Below, piece after piece: positions 1 to 50,914 of a DNA stretch of 54,613 nt (position 1 is its first letter; every line of letters begins with the position of its first letter). The notes under the pieces are model-generated. The model did not search any database. It was given only the letters and a program-made list of their open reading frames with translations, and was not told the origin of the DNA. The DNA lies in IMG/VR virus record IMGVR_UViG_3300043432_000146, positions 1 through 54,613 of that record; one strand, written 5' to 3'. This DNA is from a virus (lineage: Duplodnaviria; Caudoviricetes). Both the position numbers and the translations under genes were made by a program.

Positions 1-681
1 ATGATTAGCATATATGGTCTCCCAGGATTTTGGCGCTAATTGAACTAAAGTAGCTTCTAGGCGTTGGTTTGCCGCAGCCAATGCCGCATCCTCTGCCGCA
101 GCCAATGCTTCAGCCCATGCCGCATTCCTTGCCGCAGCCCATGCCGCACTCCATGCCGCACTCCATGCCGCAGTCCATGCCGCATCCTCTGCCGCAGCCC
201 ATGACTCATCCCCTGCCACAGCCCTTGCCGCAGCCCTTGCCGCAGCCAATGCCGCATCCTCTGCCGCAGCCAATTCAGCATCAGTAGCTTTTCCATCAAT
301 CCATCTACGTTTCACAGCAATAGCTGCTATGCTTCTTGGATCTGGATCAGCCATAGCAGACAATGCTCTTTCAGCCTCATCACAAGCAAATGTATGCAAT
401 GCCTTTGTAGCATCGGCATACCATAGCACCTCACGACGATTGGATACGTATTTGTCAATATCGTGGAGGATTTTTCCACTAGACCTTACTTGGCACACGA
501 GTGGCCCAGGAGCGTATTTCAGTGCATCAAGTGCCATAACGGACCCATGAAATCCAGCCTCGCAAAGCTTCAGTTGACCATCCCACTCATACAACTTACA
601 TTCAAGTTTCTGGCCATCTCTGAGTAGGCCAGTCGATGAAACAAAGTGCCACCCCAGAATGCTAGACTCAATGTCTGCCAT
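1..681 (-). CDS. Paralog A: DUF7666-like N-terminal domain, Imm5-like helical domain and Ala/Trp-rich repeats (partial, runs off window start)
   Basis: Not in the ORF track because there is no stop in the window. Manual translation from ATG at 681: [59 protein letters not shown]...[33 protein letters not shown]...; clearly homologous to 923..1621 and 3380..4033. Confidence 0.85.
   Translation of the reverse strand, partial: MADIESSILGWHFVSSTGLLRDGQKLECKLYEWDGQLKLCEAGFHGSVMALDALKYAPGPLVCQVRSSGKILHDIDKYVSNRREVLWYADATKALHTFACDEAERALSAMADPDPRSIAAIAVKRRWIDGKATDAELAAAEDAALAAARAAARAVAGDESWAAAEDAAWTAAWSAAWSAAWAAARNAAWAEALAAAEDAALAAANQRLEATLVQLAPKSWETIYANH
262..429. repeat. 168-bp exact direct repeat, copy 1 (copy 2 at 3608..3775)
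   Basis: Base-by-base comparison from tgccgcagccaattcagcatc to ggcataccatagcac shows identity at both loci. Confidence 0.9.
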
Positions 682-922: not shown

Positions 923-1621
923 TTAGCTAATTCCTGGCATGTATTTCAGGATTGTGGTTTCTAGCACGGCGTTCAGTTTCATGTATGCCGCAGCCCTTGC
1001 CGCCAATGCTGCAGCCCTTGCCGCAGCCCTTGCCGCATCCCTTGCATCCCTTACCGCAGCCCATGCCTCATCCCCTGCCGCAGCCATTGCCGCAGCCCTT
1101 GCCGCATCCAATGCCGCATTCTTTGCATCCTTTGCCGCAGCCATTGCCGCAGCCATACCCGCAGCCCCTGCCGCATTCTTTGCATCCTTTGCCACAGCCA
1201 TTGCCGCAGCCCCTGCCGCAGCCAATTCAGCATCAGTAGCTTTCCCAACAAGCCATTGACGCTTTGTCTCAATAGCATTCCAGAAGCAATCATCAGTCAC
1301 ATCTGTAAGCATCAGGGCTATTTCTGCACACTGACAAGCAAATTCGTGCAGAATGCTAGTAGCATCCAGATAATCAAGCACATTGCGTCTGGTACACACT
1401 AACTTGTCCTTCTTCGCAATCTGCCTACCACTACACTTAACACGGCATACAATTGATCCTGGAGCATACTGCAGTGCATCTAGAATACGCCTAGAAGCGT
1501 GCAGCCCAGACTTACACATGGTAAGTGGTCCACTGTAGGCATATAGCCCCCTATGCAACCTATGGCCATCCCGCAATAGTTCTGAATCTGCAACGAAATG
1601 CCAGGCCAAAATTTGTTTCAT
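923..1621 (-). CDS. Paralog B: DUF7666-like/Imm5-like protein with Ala-rich repeats
   Basis: [42 protein letters not shown] followed by 4-aa Ala repeats. Confidence 0.85.
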
Positions 1622-1968: not shown

Positions 1969-2511
1969 CTAGCCACAATAGACCCTCTCGGACTGACGAC
2001 CATACATCTTCTTAAAATCAGCAACCTTAGCACGAATGGCGTCCTCAGGTTCACCGTCGGACTCCATCTTGCTCACGATGGTAGCGAGTTGTTGGCGATA
2101 AGATTCTGGAAGACGGTCAGTGCTCGTGATCCGGTAACACGGAACAAAGTAGATGTTGTAATAAGGACCAAGCTTTACGGTATGCGAACGAAAAACCTTT
2201 TCAGCAGTTTCTGCCCTAGCAGCAAATTCTGCCCGTGCCTTTTCAGCAGTTTCTGCCCTAGCAGCAAATTCTGCCCGTGCCTTTTCAGCAGTTTCTGCCC
2301 TAGCAGCAAATTCTGCCGCTTTAACCTTTATATCGGTCACAGCTTTATCATTCCAGCGGCCGATCAGTCGTTCACAACCTGGAGTCAACCACGTTATGCT
2401 AACGACCAAAGAAAGTACCAATATTGGCAACCTAAAAACCTTCCAAATAGTGAAGACTGCCATGCCGCCGAACGCCAGTGCAGCAAGTAATTTAGTTGTT
2501 GTTTTTTCCAT
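1969..2511 (-). CDS. membrane protein with 14-aa coiled-coil tandem repeats
   Basis: Two hydrophobic N-terminal segments; (AEFAARAETAEKAR)x3. Confidence 0.7.
   Translation of the reverse strand: MEKTTTKLLAALAFGGMAVFTIWKVFRLPILVLSLVVSITWLTPGCERLIGRWNDKAVTDIKVKAAEFAARAETAEKARAEFAARAETAEKARAEFAARAETAEKVFRSHTVKLGPYYNIYFVPCYRITSTDRLPESYRQQLATIVSKMESDGEPEDAIRAKVADFKKMYGRQSERVYCG
2196..2317. repeat. 42-bp perfect tandem repeat, ~2.9 copies
   Basis: Unit ccttttcagcagtttctgccctagcagcaaattctgcccgtg. Confidence 0.9.
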
Positions 2512-3164: not shown

Positions 3165-3383
3165 CTAGTCGGTGTTTTGGCAGCTTAAACTACTTGGATC
3201 GTGACTAAATGACGCCTTCAGCAATTGCAACCATTGCCCATCGGCTAATGCAGCCTCATCTCTCATGCCTTTTGATAGATAGGATGCAATCTTGACCACA
3301 CTTGGTTTTCGTAACAGGCAGGCTCCAAGATTAGGATGTTGGCTACATAGGTAGCAATAGCAACTAAAATCAGCAGGGCTCAT
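3165..3383 (-). CDS. hypothetical protein
   Basis: ATGA overlap with the stop of paralog C. Confidence 0.5.
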   Translation of the reverse strand: MSPADFSCYCYLCSQHPNLGACLLRKPSVVKIASYLSKGMRDEAALADGQWLQLLKASFSHDPSSLSCQNTD

Positions 3384-4033
3384 GGTTCAACCTCAATAAA
3401 TTTGGGGGCAAGCTGGTTCAAAGTGGCTTCAAGCCTGATATTTGCCATACCCATTGCCGCAGCCATTGCCGCAGCCCTTGCATCCTCTGCCGCATCCCCT
3501 GCCGCAGCCCATGCTGCAGCCCATGCTGCAGCCCTTGCCACAGCCCCTGCTGCATCCCTTGCCACAGCCCATGCCGCATCCATTGCCACAGCCCATGCCG
3601 CATCCCTTGCCGCAGCCAATTCAGCATCAGTAGCTTTTCCATCAATCCATCTACGTTTCACAGCAATAGCTGCTATGCTTCTTGGATCTGGATCAGCCAT
3701 AGCAGACAATGCTCTTTCAGCCTCATCACAAGCAAATGTATGCAATGCCTTTGTAGCATCGGCATACCATAGCACAGTGCGTTCTGATGCTACTAGCTTA
3801 TCGTCACTCTCCACAATGGCCCCACTGCATCTAACGCGACATACAATAGATCCTGGAGCATATTTCAAGGCATCAAGCGCCCTTATAGATGCATGTAAAC
3901 CAGATACACACATCTTTAGCTCACCAAGATGGTAATAACTTCGTCTAGCAAGGGTCTGCCCATCCCGCAACAAACCAGTATCAGCTACAAAGTGCCATGC
4001 CAGAACGCTGTTACTCTGCTTCTCTGTTAACAT
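3380..4033 (-). CDS. Paralog C: DUF7666-like/Imm5-like protein with Ala/Trp-rich repeats
   Basis: [43 protein letters not shown] repeats. Confidence 0.85.
3608..3775. repeat. 168-bp exact direct repeat, copy 2
   Basis: Identical to 262..429. Confidence 0.9.
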
Positions 4034-9524: not shown

Positions 9525-10982
9525 ATGGCCAAATGGGTATCCCTTCCAGCAGAACCTCTTCGTTATCAGCCTGAGCAAAAAGCCTTCTGGCAGGCAATCA
9601 AAGATCGTGTCTGCAGGAAATGTAAAACTGAGTTTACTGTAGCAGAAACTAAGTTCCTCTGTCCTAAATGCAGTTCAAAGGGATTTCGGAAGTGGGATCG
9701 TCTTACTATTATTGCTGGTAGACGATTTGGCAAGACCAGGGGGGGCTCTATCGCAGGAGCTTTTGAGGCTACAATCCCAAACTCTCTAGGTTGGGCTTGT
9801 GCTCCATCTAACCAAAAGCTCCATCGTTATGTCATTCCTGCCTTTCAGCAACTCATTCCAGAAGATTGGGTTGCTGATTGGAGCACAGAATATCTAGATC
9901 TACGGTTGAAGAATGGCTCGCTGATCCACTTCCAGACTCTCGAACATCCAGACCAAGGCCGAGGACAGGGCCTAGATTGGTTATGGATTGATGAGGTTTG
10001 TGAGCTAAGCAAGTCCCACTGGGAAGTTATCAGGCCATCATTAGCTGGTGATACAGTAGCTTTCTTTACAACTTCTCCACGCGGTTATGATTGGGTCTAC
10101 GAGGAACTATACAAACCAGCTGAAGACGGTTTACCTGGCTACTGGGGCTGCCACGCTAAAACCTCAGAAAGTGCTAATCCCCGCATCTCTGCTGAGTTCC
10201 TAGCTCGTGAACGTGCTCAGATGTCAGATGCAATGTATCGGCAGGAATATGAGGCAGACTTTGTTATCTTCACAGGTGCAGTTTACGGGGGCCTTGTTGA
10301 TCCACAGATTCTCAGAAGCACCGAAGAAGTCAAAAAACTCATACCAGAATGGCCTGCGGTTGATCCTAGCCGACCAGTGCTTATCGGTATCGATACTGGG
10401 GCAGATCATCCCTTCGGAGCGATCAAGCTAGTCTCCACTGAAGCTGGCTTGATTGCGGTTGGTGAATATCTAGAGCGTAACCGCCCATTTATCCAACATG
10501 CCAGCTCCCTGAAGATGATGGCTGGCTATAGTCCAGTCAAGTGGGCTATCAATAAGAATGAGCGTCAACAAACTATAGAGCTTGCCCAGCACGGGATCTT
10601 TTGTCAGAAGGCGGAGAATGATGTTATTGCCGGCACTGAACGGGTCAAAAGTTGGCTCCATGCTAAGCAGCTTTGGCTTGTAGAGCAAGCATGTCCCCTT
10701 ACTATTAGACAATTAAAAGCTTATCGCTGGGCCGATAATGAGACACGTAAGGAAGAGAAGCGCAGTGAGCGGGTCTTTAAAAAGGATGATGAGCTTCCAG
10801 ATTGCTTAAGATATGCCCTCATGACTTGGCCTATTTTACCAAAGTATGTAGAGCCACAAGACAAGCCCAGAGATATTTCCCACTTACCCTGGGAAGCTAG
10901 AGCTACCATTGAGCGTATGCGTCGAATCGATAAACCCCAGCCTGAGGAGCCGGAAAGCATCACTGGGGACTTTTGGTCATAA
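9525..10982 (+). CDS. terL: terminase large subunit
   Basis: Walker A AGRRFGKT, Walker B LWIDE, TTSP coupling motif, nuclease IGIDTG and DELPDCLRY; N-terminal Zn-ribbon insertion. Confidence 0.95.
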   Translation: MAKWVSLPAEPLRYQPEQKAFWQAIKDRVCRKCKTEFTVAETKFLCPKCSSKGFRKWDRLTIIAGRRFGKTRGGSIAGAFEATIPNSLGWACAPSNQKLHRYVIPAFQQLIPEDWVADWSTEYLDLRLKNGSLIHFQTLEHPDQGRGQGLDWLWIDEVCELSKSHWEVIRPSLAGDTVAFFTTSPRGYDWVYEELYKPAEDGLPGYWGCHAKTSESANPRISAEFLARERAQMSDAMYRQEYEADFVIFTGAVYGGLVDPQILRSTEEVKKLIPEWPAVDPSRPVLIGIDTGADHPFGAIKLVSTEAGLIAVGEYLERNRPFIQHASSLKMMAGYSPVKWAINKNERQQTIELAQHGIFCQKAENDVIAGTERVKSWLHAKQLWLVEQACPLTIRQLKAYRWADNETRKEEKRSERVFKKDDELPDCLRYALMTWPILPKYVEPQDKPRDISHLPWEARATIERMRRIDKPQPEEPESITGDFWS

Positions 10983-11367: not shown

Positions 11368-13722
11368 TTGCCTGACATAACAGCAGAATCTACTAATACA
11401 GTATTTGGCTCTCAGACTGAGACCCATAGTCTAATAGCAGCTGGGAGTATTCCTTCTGCCTTCCCTACAGTAACCAAGACATCTGAATATGATGCTCAGC
11501 GGTTACTGACAATGTTTGGGGCACTAAAAAGGGAGTCTACCGAATACCGCTGGATCTGGGAACGTGAATGGCTTAGAGATCTATTCTATGTAGCTAATAG
11601 ACAATGGATCTTCTTCCACCCTACTAGACGTGAGTGGATTGACAAAAGATTACAAAAGTGGATTCCTCGGCCAGTTACTAACAAGATGGCAGAGACAGTA
11701 CAGTCCATTAGAACCACGCTTGGTGCGATTAACCTATCTATTACAGCCCGTCCAGTTGGTAGTGATGCACAAGCTATTGCAGCAGCTGAAATTGTAGATC
11801 AGCTTGGTCCTCTGATTCATGAAGAGCATAACATGAATCAAGTAATGAGGGAAGCTGACTTTTGGCTTATCACTTGTGGTAATGCCTGCCTTCAGCTAAG
11901 TTGGGATCGAGATGCCAGATTCAATAGAACTTTTATTCAATCTGAGCAGTGTCCAGCTTGCCAGGGAATTTTTCAGTCCAAAGCTATAATGGATGCTGGT
12001 AATACGTGTCCCCAGTGTGGGGGTCACTTCTTACAGCCAGCTGTAAGCCCTGATGGGCAAAAGATCGGTGAATGGATATCATTTGGAAAGGGCAAAACTA
12101 CTGCTCTAAGTCCATTTGAGTATGCCTTCCCACCAAATATCACTAGATTTGACGATTTACCTTACATAATCCGCCTAAGATGGAGAGATAAACACTGGTT
12201 CGAGGCTAATATGCCTGATCTAGTGCCCAAGCTTACTTGGGAAAAGTCTCCGGCTGATCGGTCGATGCAGATCTTCAAATCCTTAGCCCTAACTAATGAT
12301 GTTGGTACAGGCTCACAGTTCGCGTATCTAGGTGCTGCTGGTGCTCATACAGTAGAGGGCATTACTGAATATGAGCTTTGGCTGCGCCCTACACCAGAAT
12401 TTCCTGAGGGTCTAGTCATGCGAGTGGCCGGGGATCAGAGCCCTCAGCTTATGGTTATGCCTGAGGAGGGCTTACCAGGGCCTATTCCATACAAAGACAT
12501 CGAAGGTAATCCATTATTCCCCTTCCTACATGCTCAATATGAACATCTAGGTGGCCGATTGTATGGCCGATCTGCAGTTTCACCACTAATCCAGAAGCAA
12601 GATCAGCTAAATCAGCTAGATTCGCTTATCCAGCTCATTGTCCAGCGCATGGCAAACCCAATTTGGTTGATTCCAGAAGGGGCCGGCATTGATCAATTCA
12701 CAGGTGAACCTGGGCTAGTCATGAAGTGGAATCCAATGGCTGCAAATGGGCAGGGCAAACCAGAGCGAATTCCTGGCGAAGAGGTTCCTAATTCTCTCTA
12801 TCAGCTGCGTAGCCAGATCCTAAAAGATATTGAGGAGATGGCTGGTACCTACGACATCATCAAGGGCCAAAAGCCTGCTGGTGTTGAGGCTTTCTCTGCC
12901 CTCCAGCTCTTAGTTGAACGCTCACAGAGTCGATTTACCTCCGTTTTCCAGGCCAGAGGGGAGATGTATCGTAACTGGGCCTCCCTTGCGGTAGAAATGG
13001 AGCGTCAATTCGGCCCACATACACGAACCTGGGTCGTTATTGGGGCTAATCGAGGCTATACCTTTAGACATTTTGAGAATGCTCAGCTACAGGGGCAGGT
13101 TTCCATCCAAATCGAAGATGGAAGTAACATGCCGAAGACAGCCTTAGGCAAAAGGGCCTCTATTGAGCAGGCAAATCAGCTTGGTCTACTAGATCCTAAC
13201 GACCCAGACCAGAAATACGCCCTACTGAGTAACTTTGGTCTATCTGATCTAGTTCCGGCCCTCGATATTCATGTCCAGGCAGCCCTACAGATCCAAGATA
13301 GCTTTGAAAGGTGGGCTCAGCAGCCTGTTGGCCCCCCACCACTTATCATTAAACCTTGGTTTAGCGGGCCAATTCATCTTAATGAATGTATCAAGTGGTT
13401 AAATACAGATAGAATGCGTGAGCTTGTAGCTAGTAACCCAATGTTTGAGCAGCTGGTTACGGCTTATCTACAGCAGCTTCAGATAATGGCTATGCCGCCC
13501 CCTATGTCGGCCCCCGGACCTGAAGGTCCTGGTGCTGCAGGTGGCGGACAGGCCCTGCGGAATAGTAATAAAGAATTCCTGCAACGTCATCGCCAGTACG
13601 TCGTCGCGGCCGGTGGCGGACAGGCCCTGCGGAATAGTAATAAAGAATCCGGTAGTCCCAAAACCGTTCCTAGAGGTAATGCTACTCGACCAAATGAAGG
13701 CCCACAGATGGGTCCTGTCTAA
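11368..13722 (+). CDS. portal protein
   Basis: 784 aa after TerL; YGRSAVSPLIQKQDQLNQLDS and ANPIWLIP portal-like segments; Pro/Gly-rich C-terminus. Confidence 0.9.
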   Translation: MPDITAESTNTVFGSQTETHSLIAAGSIPSAFPTVTKTSEYDAQRLLTMFGALKRESTEYRWIWEREWLRDLFYVANRQWIFFHPTRREWIDKRLQKWIPRPVTNKMAETVQSIRTTLGAINLSITARPVGSDAQAIAAAEIVDQLGPLIHEEHNMNQVMREADFWLITCGNACLQLSWDRDARFNRTFIQSEQCPACQGIFQSKAIMDAGNTCPQCGGHFLQPAVSPDGQKIGEWISFGKGKTTALSPFEYAFPPNITRFDDLPYIIRLRWRDKHWFEANMPDLVPKLTWEKSPADRSMQIFKSLALTNDVGTGSQFAYLGAAGAHTVEGITEYELWLRPTPEFPEGLVMRVAGDQSPQLMVMPEEGLPGPIPYKDIEGNPLFPFLHAQYEHLGGRLYGRSAVSPLIQKQDQLNQLDSLIQLIVQRMANPIWLIPEGAGIDQFTGEPGLVMKWNPMAANGQGKPERIPGEEVPNSLYQLRSQILKDIEEMAGTYDIIKGQKPAGVEAFSALQLLVERSQSRFTSVFQARGEMYRNWASLAVEMERQFGPHTRTWVVIGANRGYTFRHFENAQLQGQVSIQIEDGSNMPKTALGKRASIEQANQLGLLDPNDPDQKYALLSNFGLSDLVPALDIHVQAALQIQDSFERWAQQPVGPPPLIIKPWFSGPIHLNECIKWLNTDRMRELVASNPMFEQLVTAYLQQLQIMAMPPPMSAPGPEGPGAAGGGQALRNSNKEFLQRHRQYVVAAGGGQALRNSNKESGSPKTVPRGNATRPNEGPQMGPV
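13540..13648. repeat. 37-bp direct repeat / 35-bp unique spacer / 37-bp direct repeat inside the portal gene (CRISPR-like geometry)
   Basis: ggtggcggacaggccctgcggaatagtaataaagaat at 13540..13576 and 13612..13648; spacer tcctgcaacgtcatcgccagtacgtcgtcgcggcc. Confidence 0.85.
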
Positions 13723-13825
13723 GTCCTTCACAGCCTAGATAGGCTTTATATAATCAGCTTACTGATCGTAGAAGGAAGTAAGCGTCTCAACGCGGAACTG
13801 ACCGCGAAACCAAAGGTGAGAGCTA

Positions 13826-14659
13826 ATGGCAGACACAAACGTAACCGCTCCGTCCTCAGAACCAACGCCAGCTCCAGCGACATCGGGGCAACCCGCTGCT
13901 ACAGCCACAGCGATACCACAGGCTGCCGCTCCGCAGTCAGCGACGCCGACTGCTCCGCAGGCACCAGCGACATCAGGTGCGCCTGAAGGATGGGTTCCAT
14001 CGTATAGGATTCGGGAAAGTAGGGAAGCAGCTATCCGGGAAGCAAATGCTGAGTTTGCCCGCCGGGAAGCTGAATATAAATCTCAACTATCACAAGTCCA
14101 GTCCCAACTTCATGCACTCGTAGGCGTCCAGCCACCACAGGATCCAGAGGTATCAGCAGTTCGTAATCAGTTTGCTAAGCTCTATCCGAACTTGGCCAAA
14201 CTTGAAGAAAGAGCTGAAGATGTCTTCGGAGTTCTTGAACGTGCTGGTGATTTAGAATCGCAGACTGAGCACTACTGGCGAGAGTATGGACGACAGTCAA
14301 TGAATAGGCTTTTTGAGCATGCCAACCAATCGTTAGGTTCACCGCTAACTGACGAGGGTAAGCGTGCTCTCCATGCTTCATTCACAGGCTTCGTTACTTC
14401 GTCGCCAGAATTGGCAGAACGCTATGCTAATGATCCAACACTAGTAGAGGACTTCTGGAAACTGTTCTCGTCCAGCTTTGTTGATCCAGTTCGTAGGACA
14501 GCAGCTACAGGTATTCAGGGTAGAGCAACGACAATTGCTGCTACTCCTCAGGACACTCCATCTGGAGCACCAAGAATCCCTGGAGCACCAAAACCTGCTG
14601 ATCTTGATGAACGAGTCTCCCAGGCTTGGGCAGCGTACAACGCAACAGCTAAGCCCTAG
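13826..14659 (+). CDS. scaffolding protein
   Basis: Between portal and MCP; low-complexity N-terminus, WVPSYRIRE motif, coiled coil. Confidence 0.8.
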   Translation: MADTNVTAPSSEPTPAPATSGQPAATATAIPQAAAPQSATPTAPQAPATSGAPEGWVPSYRIRESREAAIREANAEFARREAEYKSQLSQVQSQLHALVGVQPPQDPEVSAVRNQFAKLYPNLAKLEERAEDVFGVLERAGDLESQTEHYWREYGRQSMNRLFEHANQSLGSPLTDEGKRALHASFTGFVTSSPELAERYANDPTLVEDFWKLFSSSFVDPVRRTAATGIQGRATTIAATPQDTPSGAPRIPGAPKPADLDERVSQAWAAYNATAKP

Positions 14660-14692: not shown

Positions 14693-15994
14693 ATGGCCGG
14701 TGCTGATAAACAGGCTCTTGATGCCATCTTCAAGGAAGTTTTTGAGGAAGGTGTAGCAGAAGGGGTCAATAACAAAAATCCTCTACGGGACATGATCAAG
14801 ACTGAGCGTGTTCCTTTTAGGGGTCGGGAGATTGTGCGTCTTGCACATACTACCCGTAACGTATCTCCCATGTTCGTTGGAGAAGACTCAGAGTTTGCGG
14901 ATGCTGGAAATCAGGGCTATTCGCGGATGTTCGTAGATCAGCGAAAGCTGATGTCACGTCTTCGACTGACCTGGGAGGTCATGCAGGACTCTACATCAAA
15001 CGAGGGCGCATTTATCTCTGCTCGTAAGAGTGAGATGCAGTACCTTATCGATGATATGGCTCGCCGGGATGAGTATGCACTCAACTCGGATGGTCGCGGA
15101 GTTCTTGCTACCTACTCGTCTGCTTCAGGTGCTGTTGTTACAGTAGCCAATCCAGGCGGGATTACCAATACCAACTTTGGCAACCGATTCATCTCTCCTG
15201 GTATGTTTGTTGCAGCAGTAGATCCTCTAACTGGGGCACTGCGTACATCCATTCGGAAGGTTATCTCGGTAGCCAATGGTGGAGGTACCTTCACTGCAGA
15301 TTCTTCAACCTTTACTGGTTGGACTGCCAATGATTATATCGTTCAGGCTGCTAATTCAGGTGTTACTGACGTGCTCTCAACTTCCTATGAGCATGCTTGG
15401 TGGGGCCTAATGGCGCTTGTTGATGATGGTACCTATCGTGCAAGCTACTATGGTTTGGACCGTACAGCTGTTCCAGCCTATAGCTCGTATGTAACCGCCA
15501 GCACTGGAGCCCTATCTACCGATCTCATTCAGCGGGTATCGGATATCGTAGACCAGAAGTTGAATGGTAAGATTAGTAATATAATCTGCCATCACAGCAC
15601 CCGTCGATTGATTATCCAGCTTACTGATGCTGATCGTCGGTATATGGGAGCTTCGTTGCTTCGTCCAGATCCAGGAACCGTAGCGTTCAAGCAGGGAGAC
15701 GTACCATTCGGTGACGTTCCTGTTCGAGCCCTCCGAGACTTCCCACTAGACGTTCTCATGTTCCTCGACCTTAACAACGCTGGTTTCAGGGAGTATGTCT
15801 CTGAACCCGGTAAGTGGGTTGATGAGGATGGATCTGTTCTGTGGCGTGTCGGAACCGGCACGGCTGGCCGGGATGCTTTCGAGGCTTGGTATAGAATGCG
15901 TAAGCAGTACTTTCTTGAGTACCCAGCATTCTGTGCCAGACTTGATGGTGTAACTGGTCAAGCACTTGCTGTGGTTCGTGCTGCTGGATCATAA
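14693..15994 (+). CDS. major capsid protein
   Basis: 433 aa after scaffold, followed by a terminator; capsid-like N-terminus ALDAIFKEVF...NNKNPL. Confidence 0.88.
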   Translation: MAGADKQALDAIFKEVFEEGVAEGVNNKNPLRDMIKTERVPFRGREIVRLAHTTRNVSPMFVGEDSEFADAGNQGYSRMFVDQRKLMSRLRLTWEVMQDSTSNEGAFISARKSEMQYLIDDMARRDEYALNSDGRGVLATYSSASGAVVTVANPGGITNTNFGNRFISPGMFVAAVDPLTGALRTSIRKVISVANGGGTFTADSSTFTGWTANDYIVQAANSGVTDVLSTSYEHAWWGLMALVDDGTYRASYYGLDRTAVPAYSSYVTASTGALSTDLIQRVSDIVDQKLNGKISNIICHHSTRRLIIQLTDADRRYMGASLLRPDPGTVAFKQGDVPFGDVPVRALRDFPLDVLMFLDLNNAGFREYVSEPGKWVDEDGSVLWRVGTGTAGRDAFEAWYRMRKQYFLEYPAFCARLDGVTGQALAVVRAAGS

Positions 15995-42776: not shown

Positions 42777-42935
42777 CTATCCTCTCATCTTTAACAGGCC
42801 AGCAGTTAGAATAATAGCTCCAAACCAATACAGCATCCGACCAACCGAATCATTGCCCCTTAGCTCCTGGCATACATAATAGATAAATATCCCAGAATTC
42901 ATCACCAATGGTGCCCACTCAATTCTCCACTTCAT
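42777..42935 (-). CDS. small two-TM protein
   Basis: Manual: MKWRIEWAPLVMNSGIFIYY...MLYWFGAIILTAGLLKMRG; ATGA overlap with the polymerase stop. Confidence 0.6.
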   Translation of the reverse strand: MKWRIEWAPLVMNSGIFIYYVCQELRGNDSVGRMLYWFGAIILTAGLLKMRG

Positions 42936-45754
42936 TTCATTTCACCCCATCTATAGCCTTTCTTATCCTCTGTAAGAATATTCAGGCATTCACCCATCTT
43001 ATAACTTGCTGGTAGCCTAAGCTCAGGAATGGATTTTTCCATCTCTTCCCGGACAATCGGGCTAACTCTATCTACTTCAGCCTCAGGAACCTCACAAAAA
43101 ATTTCATCATGTATCTGTAACCGCATATACTGCCCAGCTTCTTCAAATCTATTGAAGTAAAGCCTAAGGATTGCCTCCTTAATAATCCCTGCTGCTGTGC
43201 TCTGTGGTAGAAAGGCAATCAGCCTGTTAGCATCCTGCCCAGGCTCCTTCTTCCACTTCCCGCCTTCTTTCTTATAATCAAACGGCCTAAAGAACCTATG
43301 CACATAGCCAAATGGATTCCTAAGATAGCCGTCCTTTTCTACCTGATACATCAAGGTCCAGTGCCAGCGCCTAATCTCTGGGAATAGATCGAAGTAGATC
43401 CCCATAATTTTGGCCACTTTAGCTACTGGATATTCTATACCAGTCTCTTCAAAGATCTTCTCTGCTGCACCCTTTGGGCTTTGGAAAAAATTTCCAGCGT
43501 GGATTAAATGCTTATACAAATTATTCCGCTCAGCCTTAAACTCTGCCTTAATAGCAGCTAAATGACTAGTTAGTTTGGCATCATCCCAACTTACCAATGG
43601 AAGATCATTAGCACTAACTCTACCATCTAGCTCATGTAGAGCATAAGCAGTATAGTACGAATGGACATCTATCTTTGCTAATCTGATATAGTTAGGGGCT
43701 AAAGCAAAATAACCAGTAAGCACTGCCTCTATTCCAGAATAATCACAGGCCAGGAAGATCTGCCCCGGCCCAGCAATAATCAAATTCCTAATAATAGTAG
43801 CTAGATCATCTTTACCTTTTGGTCTTGGTAGGTTTTGGAGGTTAGGGTGCTGACTAGCTAATCTCAGCGTAGAGGGGTTGTGCGAAAATTGGGTATGGAT
43901 CCTACCATCAGCAGCAATATCCATCCCACCTTTGATCTTTCCACCTAGCTGCGTAATACCTATATAGGTTCCGAGCAGTTTCTGAACTTCTCTGTGCTTC
44001 AGGATCAATGGATATAAGGAATCATTCGGGTACTGCTTAACCAATCTCACTATAGCCTTAGCATCAAATGTCGTCTTCTGCTCTTTCCAATCGACAATAG
44101 ACCTATGTTGAACCGCCCCCTGATACATAGATAAACCAAGCTTACTGGCTTTAAAGTCCAACTGCTTAGCCCATACTTTAACCATCTCTTCAACCGTAAT
44201 TACAGCAGCCTCAGCACATACTTTATCTAACCCTGCAGCTATCTGCTTCTTGCTGGCTGGCTTAAAATGACTTTTATGGGGATTTGATATTCTACAAAGG
44301 CTACACCGCTTAACTGGCATAGATCGTTCAACCTGGGCCATATTAAGAGCTTTTGCAGCCTCTTCTAGTTCGATCCCATCTAGCCCTTTAAGTTCCTTAG
44401 GCAGCTTCTTGTAGATCTTCAGTCGTCGGGCAGCATCGGGAACTACTGCAGCCATATCATACGTAATTTTATTGAGTATATTGCTAAGCTTACTCTCAGC
44501 TGCATTACGCATTTCTTCATCCCTTAGCACACCCATCTCACTCATATAACTAAGGGCTCTATTTAGCTTTACTACATGATTTTCATAGACCTTCCAGAGA
44601 TCATTAGCTTTGAGATCCCTCCTAATACCTAATACATTCCTCAGTGCCATGTCAGCATCCTTGGCATTGTAATAGGCGGGCCGCTCATCGCTCAAATGCT
44701 TCCACATACTGGTATTATGGACATACCACGGTGTCACAAACCCCAAACCCTTATCTAGTGCAGAGTTAAGAACGTGCCACATGATCATCCCATCCAGTAA
44801 ATCTCCATTTATGGGCATCTGGGCTCTGATTCGAGGATCATCATATTGGTAATTGTTCCATCCACACTTTTCATGTGGTGAAGCAAACAAACTCTCAATC
44901 ATTGGGATGTATGGAGCTGTCCAGGGAACACTAACCGCAATTCCAGGTGCATACGAGAATGAGCACCTTAGAATCGTATAATCTCCATCATCCTCTTTAG
45001 CAGCTTCTTCCTCATCTTGCCCCTGCTTATGTGGTGTCTCAATATCATAAGACAGGATTGCTTCAGTATTTTCATGCAGATAGTGTAGGCAAGCCTTGAC
45101 CCACTCCAGAAATCTTTCTGGTGCTGGATCTTCTAAATACTTTGAGTCATCCAACTTAAGCCCCTGCTCAGCAATCTCCAAAGCCCGCTTGAAAATGAAT
45201 TGTAGAATTGGAACCCGGCTATGTTGTCCTCTCATTAGAAAGCTAGGATGTTCAGCTGCCATCACCCAGCAGTTATATCTATCACTCCATAGCGGATAGC
45301 CCAGATAGTCATAGCGAAAGATCTGGTTCTTACTCTCAATCCCCATGATTCGCTTAAATGCTATTTTTCCCAGCGCCAAGATAATCAGATGCTTCCCAAA
45401 CTGTCTAGCTCTATTTTGCATATCTGCAATGGTAGCATCTAGTAGGGGAGCACAATATGTGACAACATCCTGCTCATAACTTGCCCCAGCCAATACGTTC
45501 TTTGGAGGTCTACACGATAGACAATTATGGATCCTAAATCCTTCCCGATCTATTCCTGCCCGAGCCAACTGCGACCATAGATAGTGTCCAGCCTTACCAA
45601 TAAGTGGTAAGCCGTCCTGAGCCTCATGCTCCCCGGCAGCTTCAGCTACAACCAGCACTCCATTAGTACCAGATCCCGAAGCAGGCACATATCCTGATGA
45701 TCCCCATGACCATCCAAAACATCCATGACAATGTGGAGGCTTAGCTAAGCTCAT
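42932..45754 (-). CDS. polA: family A DNA polymerase with N-terminal uracil-DNA glycosylase-like (family 4, Fe-S) domain and 3'-5' exonuclease
   Basis: UDG: CHGC, VAEAAGEHE, CRPP, HPSF. Exo: YDIET, YDD, YNAKD. Pol motifs A (DYSGIE), B (R..LYKHLIHAGNF) and C (QIHDE). Confidence 0.93.
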   Translation of the reverse strand: MSLAKPPHCHGCFGWSWGSSGYVPASGSGTNGVLVVAEAAGEHEAQDGLPLIGKAGHYLWSQLARAGIDREGFRIHNCLSCRPPKNVLAGASYEQDVVTYCAPLLDATIADMQNRARQFGKHLIILALGKIAFKRIMGIESKNQIFRYDYLGYPLWSDRYNCWVMAAEHPSFLMRGQHSRVPILQFIFKRALEIAEQGLKLDDSKYLEDPAPERFLEWVKACLHYLHENTEAILSYDIETPHKQGQDEEEAAKEDDGDYTILRCSFSYAPGIAVSVPWTAPYIPMIESLFASPHEKCGWNNYQYDDPRIRAQMPINGDLLDGMIMWHVLNSALDKGLGFVTPWYVHNTSMWKHLSDERPAYYNAKDADMALRNVLGIRRDLKANDLWKVYENHVVKLNRALSYMSEMGVLRDEEMRNAAESKLSNILNKITYDMAAVVPDAARRLKIYKKLPKELKGLDGIELEEAAKALNMAQVERSMPVKRCSLCRISNPHKSHFKPASKKQIAAGLDKVCAEAAVITVEEMVKVWAKQLDFKASKLGLSMYQGAVQHRSIVDWKEQKTTFDAKAIVRLVKQYPNDSLYPLILKHREVQKLLGTYIGITQLGGKIKGGMDIAADGRIHTQFSHNPSTLRLASQHPNLQNLPRPKGKDDLATIIRNLIIAGPGQIFLACDYSGIEAVLTGYFALAPNYIRLAKIDVHSYYTAYALHELDGRVSANDLPLVSWDDAKLTSHLAAIKAEFKAERNNLYKHLIHAGNFFQSPKGAAEKIFEETGIEYPVAKVAKIMGIYFDLFPEIRRWHWTLMYQVEKDGYLRNPFGYVHRFFRPFDYKKEGGKWKKEPGQDANRLIAFLPQSTAAGIIKEAILRLYFNRFEEAGQYMRLQIHDEIFCEVPEAEVDRVSPIVREEMEKSIPELRLPASYKMGECLNILTEDKKGYRWGEMK

Positions 45755-45755
45755 T

Positions 45756-45935
45756 CTATAGGCACTCAGCAATTAGTTTAATCAATTCGCTTGCAGTGCT
45801 GAACTCTAAAAATGATGTAACAGCAGTCTGCAGATCATTCATAACTCTCTCTCGATATTCCATGATTGACTCATCATCTGTTTCTCTATACAGATCATCA
45901 GGCTCTTCTATGAGCCTTGAATTATCATACCCCAT
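45756..45935 (-). CDS. small acidic protein
   Basis: MGYDNSRL start after GGAGG. Confidence 0.6.
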   Translation of the reverse strand: MGYDNSRLIEEPDDLYRETDDESIMEYRERVMNDLQTAVTSFLEFSTASELIKLIAECL

Positions 45936-47430: not shown

Positions 47431-48315
47431 TTAGTTTGCTTGTGCCAACCGCTGTTTAATCTTTTCAATTGCTACACTGTGCCCTCCCTCAATCATTTGC
47501 AGTGCTTTAACGATAGAAGCTGGTTCGATAAGGTTTTGGGCTGGTGCAGGTGCATCCAGTGGTAATCTAGTATTACCTAATCCGGCAGCATTCCCAGCCC
47601 CCACATCCACATGATTTCCCAAATACAACACATGCCTTTCAGGCTTGCCTGCCTGTGCTGGCAAAACATCAATCCTAAAAACCAGATTAAACCACCTAGG
47701 AACCTCAGCGGTTAGGGCCTTACCAATAACATCAGGCCCCAAGATCTTACCTGCTGCAGTAGTATCTTCATCCTTGCTCACACTAGATGTCCACAAGATG
47801 AACGGAGCACTTAGCTTTTGTGATTCCCATACCTCTTCAGTAATCCTGTTTTGGGCAATTCCAAACATAGCCATATTGCTGCCACTAATCTTCAGTGACT
47901 CTCCATCGCCAGTAACAGTAAATGAGATATTAGCTCCACCCCCAATGTTAATATTCTGTGCTGCCTTCTGAGCCATATTCGTCATCAAAGCCTCAGCAAT
48001 AGCCCTGAGACTTTCAAAGGCAAACATGCCAATATTATCATTCTTCCCTGGCACCCACTTTCCACTGCTATCCCTGACATATCCCCTAACAGCCTTATTG
48101 AGAAAGATCCAAGGATCAGTAGTTCCCATCTCTACTGGCTCTATGATGCCCAGATCAATGTAGGGCCTGATGGTATCAGTGCCGCCCTTATCAGCCGTAT
48201 AAAGACGAGTATTCTTTTTCTCAGTCTTCTTGACATATTCAGCTAGCTCCCCGATTTGGGCAGTCTTGCCGCTGTTCGTTCTGCCATATAGCAGGATAGT
48301 TCTTTTATTAGCCAT
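47431..48315 (-). CDS. AAA_24 / Sak4-like ATPase
   Basis: LLYGRTNSGKT, FAFESL, GPDVIGKAL...VPRWFN. Confidence 0.8.
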   Translation of the reverse strand: MANKRTILLYGRTNSGKTAQIGELAEYVKKTEKKNTRLYTADKGGTDTIRPYIDLGIIEPVEMGTTDPWIFLNKAVRGYVRDSSGKWVPGKNDNIGMFAFESLRAIAEALMTNMAQKAAQNINIGGGANISFTVTGDGESLKISGSNMAMFGIAQNRITEEVWESQKLSAPFILWTSSVSKDEDTTAAGKILGPDVIGKALTAEVPRWFNLVFRIDVLPAQAGKPERHVLYLGNHVDVGAGNAAGLGNTRLPLDAPAPAQNLIEPASIVKALQMIEGGHSVAIEKIKQRLAQAN

Positions 48316-49504: not shown

Positions 49505-49800
49505 CCCCGTAATAGTTGCTTGGTTGAAGTAACATAAACCTCTATGCGTTGATTCCAGGAAATTGCTCCAGGTGGAAATGGTGGGTTAGCCATAAATTTA
49601 GCAATTAACTGTTCAGCTTGCTTAACTGTTTTAACCCGCTTACACTGGATACAAACCATAGGAGCATTGGCCCTTGCACAGTACAGATCATAGGGACCAT
49701 GACTTCCAGCTGCCCTAGTTACGGTATAACCCATGCCTTTCCATGCCTTAGCCCTTTCATACTCGAACCTACGCCCAGACAAGTATCTTTTATTAGGCAT
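49495..49800 (-). CDS. Holliday junction resolvase (Hjc-like PD-(D/E)XK)
   Basis: GRRFEYE, GYTVTRAAGSHGPYDL, IQCK; start MPNKRY. Confidence 0.8.
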   Translation of the reverse strand: MPNKRYLSGRRFEYERAKAWKGMGYTVTRAAGSHGPYDLYCARANAPMVCIQCKRVKTVKQAEQLIAKFMANPPFPPGAISWNQRIEVYVTSTKQLLRGWA

Positions 49801-50914
49801 CCAATAGCTCCTTCTCCATCTGATGGTTAGGCACCCTCCACGCAAATCCATGCTCTAGTGGCTTATCTACCCCACCATGACAGAGCATCCTATACGGACA
49901 GCCATGCCCAAACGATGGTTGACACTGCTCAAAATTCTGATTATAAGCACTATTGAGCAACGCTGTTTTATCCTCTTCGTCCTCAACCATCTTCAGTAGT
50001 TCATTAGCTAGCTCTATTTCCTGCTCCCTACCTACTCTCTGCTTGAAAAAACTATCAACAAGATCATCCCTGACAAATATCGGTGGTGTCTGTGGAAACT
50101 GTTCAGCTAATACATTTTCGGGCATTCCCTCTACCCATGTCTTGACACCACCATCCAATTCCCAGGTAGGAACCCGTTTGAACCCTGATCTATACTCATA
50201 GGTAGTTTCTGAACTAGAGAATGGTGGTGTACCGCTTCTATGATATGCATAGCAGAATGGGGATGACTGCTTACCATAGCTTTGGAAACCTTTGTATAAT
50301 CCCTGAATCACAACCCCAGTAACCTTCTCTCCAGTGGTTGCTTCAATAGCTCTAATACTAGAATGAACTTGCACAGCAGTATTCCAGCTATTCACCCATT
50401 CTTCTCTTTTGCTAGAAGTGGATTTATATTCGATATAGAAGCAATTACCTTCATTATCTTTAACTACTAAATCTGGCCGAGACATAAAAATCATGTTATC
50501 ATGCTTATAGATCATTTCTTGCTCTATAGCCACAATTGTAGGATACTGAGTCATAAGCTTAGGCCATACGAACTTATAGAATCCTCTTAGTAACCCCTCA
50601 ACAAGAGTTGCTTGTTCATTAGCAAAATGTACAGCTTCAGCCTCTACCTCTCCAGTAAGATCAGTAAGTAGGGCCTGAACCATTTGCTGTCTGCCGGCTG
50701 TGGCTAACGCATTTATATCCACCGCTCCATGAGTATGCTGATAAGCAATACCAGCCAAGCCATCGTGAATAGCAGTGCCCATATACAGTTCAAGAGCAGT
50801 GTTATCAGGGACGATGCCCCTTCCTTCGTACTCATACTCATAGTACCGCCTGCGCTCACATCTCCAGTCGGTAATAGCTCTGCTACGGTCATGTAAAATA
50901 ATAATCTTACCCAT
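49793..50914 (-). CDS. Cas4/RecB-like PD-(D/E)XK exonuclease with Fe-S cysteines
   Basis: N-terminal C, GTAIH, RPDLV, IEYKS, C-terminal C..CPY..LC. Confidence 0.85.
   Translation of the reverse strand: MGKIIILHDRSRAITDWRCERRRYYEYEYEGRGIVPDNTALELYMGTAIHDGLAGIAYQHTHGAVDINALATAGRQQMVQALLTDLTGEVEAEAVHFANEQATLVEGLLRGFYKFVWPKLMTQYPTIVAIEQEMIYKHDNMIFMSRPDLVVKDNEGNCFYIEYKSTSSKREEWVNSWNTAVQVHSSIRAIEATTGEKVTGVVIQGLYKGFQSYGKQSSPFCYAYHRSGTPPFSSSETTYEYRSGFKRVPTWELDGGVKTWVEGMPENVLAEQFPQTPPIFVRDDLVDSFFKQRVGREQEIELANELLKMVEDEEDKTALLNSAYNQNFEQCQPSFGHGCPYRMLCHGGVDKPLEHGFAWRVPNHQMEKELLDA

What the first reader, a model, noticed from the sequence alone, without database searches (positions are those of the whole stretch)
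13540..13648. CRISPR-like repeat-spacer-repeat embedded in frame in the portal gene: candidate ectopic spacer acquisition into a phage
Seen: an exact 37-bp duplication flanks a unique 35-bp segment. The 72-bp addition keeps the frame, giving GGGQALRNSNKE twice. The insert has 6 CpG in 35 bp, unlike the surrounding DNA, and I did not notice it elsewhere in the window. The repeat has a central dyad (CAGG-C-CCTG). Established: Cas1-Cas2 integrates ~30-40-bp prespacers and duplicates a repeat-length target, occasionally off-target, whereas slippage gives tandem copies with no foreign spacer. Inference: a host adaptation complex wrote a spacer into the disordered portal tail and it survived because it is in frame, or this is a cryptic mini-array hidden in a coding sequence. 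No cas1/cas2 is present in the window.
Basis: partly seen in the sequence, partly recalled or inferred. Interest (0 to 1): 0.82.

Follow-up and report, generated by a model that had tools for sequence, protein, structure and literature searches.

The report
Foreign 35-base insert in phage portal
A freshwater phage carries a real, recent, in-frame 72-base insertion in the floppy tail of its portal gene, made of 35 bases of foreign DNA plus a 37-base copy of the target, which has the shape of a CRISPR spacer insertion gone astray, though the enzyme that made it cannot yet be named.

Summary
An exact 37-nt repeat (13540-13576, 13612-13648) flanks a unique 35-mer (13577-13611) in frame in the C-terminal tail of a P22-like portal gene.

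It is a secondary insertion:
- 24 of 24 viral and 12 of 12 metagenomic relatives whose portal reaches its stop have one motif and no insert.
- So do 120 of 120 database homologues examined.
- The nearest relative (87% DNA identity) differs by one clean gap.

It is not an assembly chimera. Independent k=31 contigs of three runs, from two samples and two studies, hold the insert joined to the repeat.

The 35-mer is compositionally foreign: 66% GC and 6 CpG, against 47% GC and CpG o/e 0.55. I found no template for it anywhere.

There is no support for a working mini-array. The repeat is native portal sequence, with no Rfam repeat match, no fold and no promoter.

Mechanism is inferred. A single off-target Cas1-Cas2 integration fits the geometry best (about 0.4). 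Break repair or template switching with captured filler is nearly as likely (about 0.33). The host is unknown, so the decisive comparison with host repeat and spacer lengths could not be made.

The parts
11368..13722 (+). Portal gene (784-aa ORF from TTG at 11368; gene callers behind the ESM Atlas start it at M49, position 11512)
   Evidence: ORF. Pfam P22_portal E 9.6e-14. 60-93% identical to 23 aligned relatives. Atlas start.
13492..13539 (+). Pro/Gly-rich linker of the portal tail, length-variable among relatives; its last 6 nt (13534-13539, Ala-Ala) resemble the last 6 nt of the insert
   Evidence: Alignment of tails. Extended 43-nt repeat at 95%. Chance of 4 or more of 6 matches is 0.048.
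13540..13576 (+). Repeat copy 1 (37 nt, exact), coding GGGQALRNSNKE, the conserved tail motif of this portal family
   Evidence: Motif conserved in all relatives.
13577..13611 (+). Unique 35-nt insert, GC- and CpG-rich, coding (F)LQRHRQYVVAA in frame; source unknown
   Evidence: No match. Absent from every relative.
13612..13648 (+). Repeat copy 2 (37 nt, identical to copy 1)
   Evidence: A contig of run X3 runs from the insert through this copy into downstream phage DNA without a difference.
13649..13722 (+). Conserved end of the portal tail (SGSPKTVPRGN...GPQMGPV) and stop codon, kept in frame by the 72-nt insertion

Best explanation
The feature is a real, recent, lineage-specific 72-nt insertion in the unstructured Pro/Gly-rich C-terminal tail of the portal protein of an apparently virulent freshwater phage. 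It consists of 35 nt of foreign DNA flanked by an exact 37-nt duplication of the target.

Most likely mechanism (inferred, not shown): a host Cas1-Cas2 adaptation complex loaded with a 35-nt prespacer attacked replicating phage DNA instead of a CRISPR repeat. Its two strand-transfer reactions were set about one repeat length (37 nt) apart. Gap filling then duplicated the 37 nt between them.

The product survived for three reasons. 72 nt keeps the frame. The insert has no stop codon. The site lies in a tail that tolerates length changes.

It now simply encodes a portal with the conserved motif AAGGGQALRNSNKE twice, separated by a 10-aa linker. I do not think it works as a CRISPR array. The two 37-nt direct repeats should make it prone to precise loss by recombination.
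For: Shown:
- Exact 37/35/37 architecture with sharp borders.
- Empty site in every relative: 24 of 24, 12 of 12 and 120 of 120.
- It is the only indel in the whole portal gene against the nearest relative.
- The two copies are 37 of 37 identical, while the nearest relative's homologue is 32 of 37, so the event is young.
- The insert is a compositional outlier.
- It has no template in the window, at the DNA level or the six-frame peptide level.
- It has no template in five relatives' records, two of them complete genomes.
- Both junctions are present in independent contigs of runs X1 and X2. Run X3, from another sample and study, has a contig running insert, repeat 2, downstream phage DNA.
- The repeat-to-insert depth ratio is 2.2 and 2.1, as expected for one insert between two copies.
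- The tail has no predicted secondary structure and low pLDDT after residue 710, and its linker varies in length among relatives.

From the literature (passages read):
- Cas1-Cas2 integrates spacers at non-CRISPR sites in vivo in E. coli (PMC7054753; bioRxiv 10.1101/148544, both citing Nivala 2018).
- It also does so in vitro with P. furiosus proteins (PMC6698737).

Recalled, not tested here:
- Repeats of 36-37 nt with spacers of about 35 nt are common in several CRISPR types.
- No known transposase gives a 37-nt target duplication.
Against: - No host, no cas genes and no CRISPR array are known for this phage. The duplication and insert lengths could not be compared with any host repeat or spacer length.
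- No source, and so no PAM, was found for the 35-mer.
- The repeat resembles no Rfam CRISPR repeat family and has no dyad of note.
- The last 6 nt of the insert match the 6 nt upstream of repeat 1 at 4 of 6 places (p about 0.05). A homology-guided joining would explain this; an integrase would not.
- No second event of this kind exists in 518,012 bases of this phage group.
- The phage group shows no tyrosine integrase and no prophage relatives. The integration intermediate would therefore have had to be repaired and packaged within a lytic cycle.
- The finding was picked because it looks like CRISPR, which weakens the argument from geometry.
Confidence: 0.4

Rival explanations
1. Break repair or replication template switching. 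Either two phage genome copies broken 37 nt apart were joined through a captured scrap of foreign DNA, or a stalled polymerase copied 35 nt from another molecule and re-primed 37 nt upstream. The CRISPR-like sizes are then a coincidence, and selection only demanded an in-frame, stop-free product.
For: - The phage replicates with its own family-A polymerase and carries a Sak4-like annealing protein and a PD-(D/E)XK nuclease, so recombination intermediates are plentiful.
- The linker next to the site is indel-prone among relatives.
- The end of the insert matches the upstream flank of repeat 1 at 4 of 6 places, as imperfect microhomology would.
- No CRISPR-specific feature was found.
Against: - It needs two rare things at once: a duplication and the capture of foreign filler.
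- Templated fillers are usually copied from nearby DNA (recalled). No template exists in the window or in five relatives' records.
- The 3'-terminal base of the supposed microhomology is a mismatch.
- The sizes fall squarely in the CRISPR range without any reason.
Confidence: 0.33
2. Assembly or sequencing artefact. In this reading the loop repeat-insert-repeat does not exist in one phage molecule. One version is a de Bruijn walk from the phage into a host CRISPR array, where the 37-mer is a spacer and the 35-mer a CRISPR repeat.
For: - The window is a metagenome-assembled viral contig.
- k=31 contigs cannot by themselves bridge a 37-nt repeat in runs X1 and X2.
- The depths in X1 do not add up: flanks 244 and 210, repeat 169, insert 77.
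Against: - The only contigs that touch the repeat in X1 and X2 are phage upstream, phage downstream and the insert contig. None was laid only in part and there were no loose ends, so no other molecule enters or leaves the repeat.
- The insert contig runs 30 nt into the repeat on both sides without branching, unlike a CRISPR repeat that meets many spacers.
- X3, from another sample and study, has one contig running insert, whole repeat 2, then 226 nt of downstream phage DNA, with 0 differences.
- The 35-mer is not a repeat in any of 185,579 species' genomes, nor in viral or metagenome contigs, nor an Rfam CRISPR repeat.
Confidence: 0.05
3. A working virus-borne mini-CRISPR array or repeat decoy hidden in the portal gene, read by host Cas proteins to attack a competitor or to soak up Cas proteins.
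For: - Repeat-spacer-repeat shape.
- Viruses are known to carry mini-arrays and solitary repeats (passages of PMC8616872; search listings of PMC6858448 and PMC10651486).
Against: - In known cases the repeats match the host's CRISPR repeats and sit behind promoters (PMC8616872 passages).
- Here the repeat is native portal coding sequence shared with relatives that have one copy.
- No Rfam repeat family match, no fold, no promoter upstream, no target found for the 'spacer'.
Confidence: 0.03
4. Ordinary old tandem duplication of a 24-codon unit whose first part has since diverged.
For: - The protein repeat extends to 14 aa, with synonymous differences in the two Ala codons.
Against: - 37 of 37 identity in the repeat, against 10 of 35 identity (my hand count) between the insert and the 35 nt upstream of repeat 1.
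- Tandem Repeats Finder reports nothing here.
- No relative has a second copy.
Confidence: 0.02

Closest known systems
Non-canonical (off-target) spacer integration by Cas1-Cas2, 'neo-CRISPR' loci (Nivala, Shipman and Church 2018; paper not held, known here from citing passages in PMC7054753, PMC6698737 and bioRxiv 10.1101/148544)
   Same: A spacer-sized foreign DNA sits between two exact copies of a repeat-sized stretch of the target, at a place that was not a CRISPR array before. The site is empty in relatives.
   Different: The described events lie in a bacterial chromosome or in plasmids in vitro, under over-produced Cas1-Cas2. This one lies in a structural gene of an apparently virulent phage, in nature, in frame, and inherited across samples. 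Here the enzyme, the host and the spacer source are all unknown.
Virus-borne mini-CRISPR arrays and solitary repeat units (Medvedeva 2019, PMC6858448; Faure 2019; Camara-Wilpert 2023, PMC10651486; reviewed in PMC8616872)
   Same: One spacer between two repeats in a viral genome without cas genes.
   Different: In those, the repeats are identical or near-identical to host CRISPR repeats, lie between genes behind promoters, and the spacers often target rival viruses. Here the repeat is the phage's own conserved coding sequence, and nothing suggests expression as crRNA.
Target-site duplications of transposable elements and casposons
   Same: Direct duplication of the target flanking inserted DNA, which implies staggered cuts and gap filling.
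   Different: Known duplications are 2-15 bp (recalled). The insert carries terminal inverted repeats and usually a transposase. Here the duplication is 37 nt, and the insert is 35 nt with no inverted repeat.
Indels by slippage or illegitimate recombination in disordered protein tails
   Same: In-frame length change in a Pro/Gly-rich, length-variable tail.
   Different: Slippage copies local sequence only. Here half of the added DNA is foreign in composition and has no local template.

Membership tests
Product of off-target Cas1-Cas2 spacer integration | Inserted DNA flanked by an exact direct duplication of the target, with the site empty in the ancestor | tested here: met
   37-nt exact duplication. 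One copy and no insert in 24 of 24, 12 of 12 and 120 of 120 relatives. Clean gap against the nearest relative.
Product of off-target Cas1-Cas2 spacer integration | Duplication length equals the repeat length, and insert length the spacer length, of the CRISPR system of the cell in which it happened | not testable with these tools
   Host unknown. No prophage relatives in genome contigs, and no kin drawn for a virus record. That 37 and 35 nt lie in the usual range is recalled, not tested.
Product of off-target Cas1-Cas2 spacer integration | Insert derives from a protospacer in foreign or host DNA, with the system's PAM beside it | tested here: inconclusive
   Composition is foreign. There was no exact match in viral, genome or metagenome contigs, and only chance-level blastn hits (E of 1 or more) in phages and plasmids, none in E. 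coli genomes.
Product of off-target Cas1-Cas2 spacer integration | Target shares sequence features with the host's repeat or leader-repeat junction | not testable with these tools
   Host repeat unknown. No Rfam CRISPR-repeat family matches 13300-13900 at E up to 10.
CRISPR array / virus-borne mini-array | [quoted passage not shown] | tested here: not met
   The repeat codes the portal family's conserved motif and is 32 of 37 identical to the single copy in the nearest relative. No Rfam match.
CRISPR array / virus-borne mini-array | Leader or promoter upstream; lies outside genes | tested here: not met
   Lies inside the portal ORF. The only promoter-like site in 13000-14000 is downstream, at 13727-13754.
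CRISPR array / virus-borne mini-array | cas genes nearby or in the same genome | tested here: not met
   No Cas1 or Cas2 match in the window. No Cas1 in five relatives' records. The window is only 73% of a genome.
Tandem duplication by slippage | Whole unit repeated head to tail, with all added DNA homologous to adjacent DNA | tested here: not met
   Insert is 10 of 35 identical to the 35 nt upstream (hand count). Longest exact match elsewhere in the window is 11 nt, as in shuffles. TRF is silent here.
Transposable element insertion or footprint | Short target duplication (2-15 bp), terminal inverted repeats | tested here: not met
   Duplication is 37 nt. 0 inverted repeats in 13000-14200.
P22-like portal protein (PF16510) | Match to the family profile above the curated cut-off | tested here: met
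   51.2 bits against a cut-off of 26.1, E 9.6e-14. The gene lies between the large terminase and the capsid gene.

The most novel reading that the evidence does not exclude
A host CRISPR adaptation complex wrote a spacer into the genome of the virus it was meant to record. The virus survived, kept the scar in its portal gene and spread with it to at least two sampled sites. Phage genomes would then hold fossils of Cas1-Cas2 activity. Their geometry (37-nt duplication, 35-nt insert) would report the CRISPR type of an unknown host.
Probability: 0.4. Interest if true: 0.8.

Novelty: new variant of a known kind. Interest (0 to 1): 0.5.

Why it matters
Off-target spacer integration has been shown in over-expressing E. 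coli and in vitro. In nature, the passages I read cite only circumstantial evidence for it.

A clean natural case inside a phage gene would show three things. The adaptation machinery acts on replicating viral DNA. Such events can be inherited. Scars of this shape could be mined from viral metagenomes to link phages with the CRISPR type of their hosts.

If the rival explanation is right instead, the case is still useful. It is a well-documented example of a phage capturing foreign filler DNA together with a target duplication, which is rarely described. It would also warn that CRISPR-like geometry alone is not proof.

Either way, the portal tail of this large uncultured phage family tolerates a 24-aa insertion and a doubled copy of its most conserved motif.

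Tried and rejected
**Source of the 35-mer: nothing found.**
- Exact scans of viral contigs, genome contigs and metagenome contigs gave 0 hits.
- Up to 3 mismatches in five relatives' records gave 0 of 5.
- blastn against phages and plasmids gave only hits with E of 1 or more. blastn against E. coli genomes gave nothing.
- Local DNA alignment and longest exact match within the window were no better than shuffles.
- Six-frame peptide comparison with the window and five relatives' records scored 32, against 31-41 in 40 shuffles.

**Closer relatives.**
- The exact 37-mer occurs in no other viral contig.
- megablast of the portal gene against isolated phages found nothing. tblastn found only 23-30% identical portals.

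**Host.**
- No prophage relatives in genome contigs.
- The protein atlas gave only viral clusters.

**Other events of the same kind.**
- None in the window.
- None in 518,012 bases of the window plus relatives. That scan covered the window, five full records and 33 of the other 35 L003-L041 loci as fetched. L001 and L002 were not scanned separately, because they lie inside the window and G001.

**Structure.**
- AlphaFold2 of the monomer with 24 sequences was poor overall (mean pLDDT 52, pTM 0.39). I use it only for the absence of predicted structure after residue 710. I made no fold search.

**Reads.**
- Run X4 laid nothing. This says nothing either way.
- Only 41% of run X3 was read.
- An uninserted allele can be neither shown nor excluded from k=31 contigs.
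- The insert-to-flank depth is 0.31-0.37 in X1 and 0.76-0.82 in X2. In X1 the repeat node (169) is shallower than the flanks (244, 210), which no mixture explains. I leave this unexplained.

**Considered and rejected.**
- The 35-mer as a CRISPR repeat reached by an assembly walk: see the rivals.
- Transposon footprint, intron or intein remnant: wrong sizes and no ends.
- A Cas4-like role for the PD-(D/E)XK nuclease: no NCBIfam match.

- Nivala 2018 is not held. I know it only from citing passages and from recall.
- Supplements were not opened.
Full report
**What is there.**
The window is a 54.6-kb metagenome-assembled virus record, linear and estimated 73% complete. Its genes, by window position:
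- 9525-10982: large terminase.
- 11368-13722: a 784-aa portal, Pfam P22_portal E 9.6e-14.
- 14693-15994: a capsid-family protein.
- 37017 onward: an endolysin.
- Minus strand: a family-A DNA polymerase fused to a UDG-like domain, a methyltransferase, a Sak4-like annealing protein and a PD-(D/E)XK nuclease.

Near the end of the portal gene an exact 37-nt string occurs twice, at 13540-13576 and 13612-13648. The two copies are separated by 35 nt that occur nowhere else in the window, even with 3 mismatches. No shuffle of the window gave two copies. The added 72 nt keep the frame, and the protein reads AAGGGQALRNSNKE, FLQRHRQYVV, AAGGGQALRNSNKE. One addition: the 6 nt before each copy agree at 4 of 6 places, with both differences at third codon positions.

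**It is a secondary, lineage-specific insertion.**
- Viral relatives: of 27 related viral loci, 24 reach the portal stop codon. All 24 have one copy of the motif and no insert. The three others are cut off before the tail.
- Metagenome relatives: of 13 loci, 12 reach the stop, and all 12 have one copy.
- Database homologues: a search of 5.8 billion proteins with the C-terminal 225 residues gave 294 hits at E of 1e-10 or better. I examined the 120 listed. None has two motifs or any internal repeat of 6 aa or more in its last 160 residues. Of these, 112 match my strict pattern once, and 8 carry one variant motif that the pattern missed.
- These three sets overlap.
- The nearest relative (L002) is 87.4% identical in DNA over the portal gene. 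It differs by a single gap run, at this site.
- The two copies are 37 of 37 identical, while L002's homologue shares 32 of 37. The event is therefore much younger than that split.
- An old diverged duplication is excluded. The insert is 10 of 35 identical to the 35 nt upstream of copy 1 (hand count), and Tandem Repeats Finder is silent here.

**It is not an assembly chimera.**
Contigs built by another pipeline at k=31 from public runs were laid on 13200-14000. Runs X1 and X2 come from one sample, which may be the source of the window.
- In X1 and X2 the only contigs touching the region are four:
  - the upstream phage contig, ending 30 nt into the repeat;
  - a 37-nt contig of the repeat;
  - a 95-nt contig made of 30 nt of repeat, the 35-mer and 30 nt of repeat;
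  - the downstream phage contig, starting 30 nt before the end of the repeat.
- Nothing was laid only in part, and there were no loose ends. So nothing but phage DNA and the insert enters or leaves the repeat.
- In X3 (another sample and study, 81% of the sampled words) one 318-nt contig runs from 13557 through the insert and the whole second copy to 13874, without a difference.
- The repeat-to-insert depth ratio is 2.2 (X1) and 2.1 (X2), as one insert between two copies predicts.

I also tested the reverse idea, that the 35-mer is a host CRISPR repeat and the 37-mer a spacer reached by a graph walk. The insert contig does not branch at its ends. The 35-mer occurs in none of the three large collections and matches no Rfam family.

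The depths leave a puzzle. The insert is at 0.31-0.37 of the flanks in X1 and at 0.76-0.82 in X2. In X1 the repeat itself (169) is shallower than the flanks (244, 210). An uninserted allele may coexist, but contigs cannot tell.

**The insert is foreign in composition and has no known source.**
- It is 66% GC with 6 CpG. The window is 47% GC with CpG observed/expected 0.545, and 171 of 54,578 35-mers reach 6 CpG.
- Its best exact match elsewhere in the window is 11 nt, and its best local alignment scores 12. Both are as in shuffles.
- Its six reading frames find nothing above shuffles in the window or in five relatives' records, two of them complete genomes.
- All collection searches were negative or at chance level.

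**It does not look like a working array.**
- The repeat is the portal family's own conserved tail motif.
- It folds no better than shuffles on either strand, as does the whole 109-nt unit.
- There is no Rfam CRISPR repeat match at E up to 10.
- There is no promoter-like site upstream within the gene.
- There is no Cas1 or Cas2 in the window, and no Cas1 in five relatives' records.
- There is no other repeat-insert-repeat in 518,012 bases of this phage group.

**Why it is tolerated.**
The site lies after the last predicted helix (residues 691-708). The segment 711-784 has no predicted secondary structure and pLDDT of 29-39. The whole model is poor, with mean pLDDT 52. The tail is 32% Pro plus Gly. 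The linker just upstream varies in length among relatives.

**Mechanism (inferred).**
A target duplication around inserted DNA implies either staggered strand breaks with gap filling, or re-copying of the target.

Reading 1: off-target integration by a host Cas1-Cas2 complex.
- It is the one known reaction that by itself gives a repeat-sized duplication around a spacer-sized foreign fragment.
- Off-target integration is documented in vivo and in vitro (passages of PMC7054753, bioRxiv 10.1101/148544 and PMC6698737).
- That 37 and 35 nt are usual repeat and spacer sizes is my recollection.

Against reading 1.
- There is no host, no PAM and no similarity to any known repeat.
- The 4-of-6 match between the insert's end and the upstream flank (p about 0.05) would be explained by homology-guided joining, not by an integrase.
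- The phage looks virulent: no tyrosine integrase in the window or in five relatives, and no prophage relatives.
- The finding was selected for looking like CRISPR.

Reading 2: end joining or template switching with captured filler.
- It is helped by the phage's own polymerase and annealing or nuclease proteins.
- It needs two coincidences and a foreign template.

My odds: 0.4 for reading 1, 0.33 for reading 2, 0.05 for an artefact, 0.03 for a working mini-array, 0.02 for an old duplication. The rest goes to something not thought of.

**Comparison with what is known.**
- It works like a 'neo-CRISPR' off-target event. Membership cannot be granted, because the defining comparison with the host system could not be made.
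- It fails the tests for a virus-borne mini-array (the repeat is not CRISPR-derived, it lies inside a gene, and it has no promoter).
- It also fails the tests for slippage and for a transposon.
- My three literature searches listed no report of a spacer-like integration into a phage structural gene. The searches cover open-access papers and bioRxiv only.

**Verdict.**
Interest is moderate (0.5), and would rise to about 0.8 if the host's CRISPR geometry matches.

Noticed in passing
window 1-681 (-, open end), 923-1621 (-), 3380-4033 (-): Three paralogous ORFs carry long arrays of a 12-nt tandem repeat coding Ala-rich repeats ([14 protein letters not shown]...). ORF 923-1621 has an N-terminal DUF7666 domain. 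Function unknown.
   Followed up: partly
window 2196-2317, inside ORF 1969-2511 (-): Perfect 42-nt tandem repeat, 2.9 copies. It codes ARAEFAARAETAEK three times in a small protein with a hydrophobic N-terminus.
   Followed up: partly
window 42932-45772 (-): Family-A DNA polymerase fused to an N-terminal family-4 uracil-DNA-glycosylase-like domain. There is also a weak sub-threshold hit to the DpoZ model.
   Followed up: no
whole window: CpG is depleted to 0.545 of expectation at 47% GC. This may reflect avoidance of host restriction or a host trait.
   Followed up: no
window 11368-13722 (portal), residues 195-217 and 725-784: This portal family has four invariant cysteines (C195, C198, C214, C217) forming a zinc-ribbon-like insert. 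It also has a conserved C-terminal motif GGxxAMxNSNxxSG...PxGN...GP after a length-variable Pro/Gly linker. The role of the tail motif is unknown.
   Followed up: partly
window 47431-48315 (-) and 49793-50914 (-): Sak4-like single-strand annealing protein and a PD-(D/E)XK nuclease, a likely phage recombination pair. The nuclease matches no NCBIfam model, Cas4 included.
   Followed up: partly
window 13200-14000 in runs X1 and X2: Contig depths do not balance in X1: flanks 244 and 210, repeat 169, insert 77. They roughly balance in X2: 75 and 70, 119, 57. Both runs come from the same sample.
   Followed up: no
G005 (record of L025) 42197 and 42402: A 19-nt exact direct repeat 205 nt apart. It was the only other spaced exact repeat found in the relatives.
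   Followed up: no
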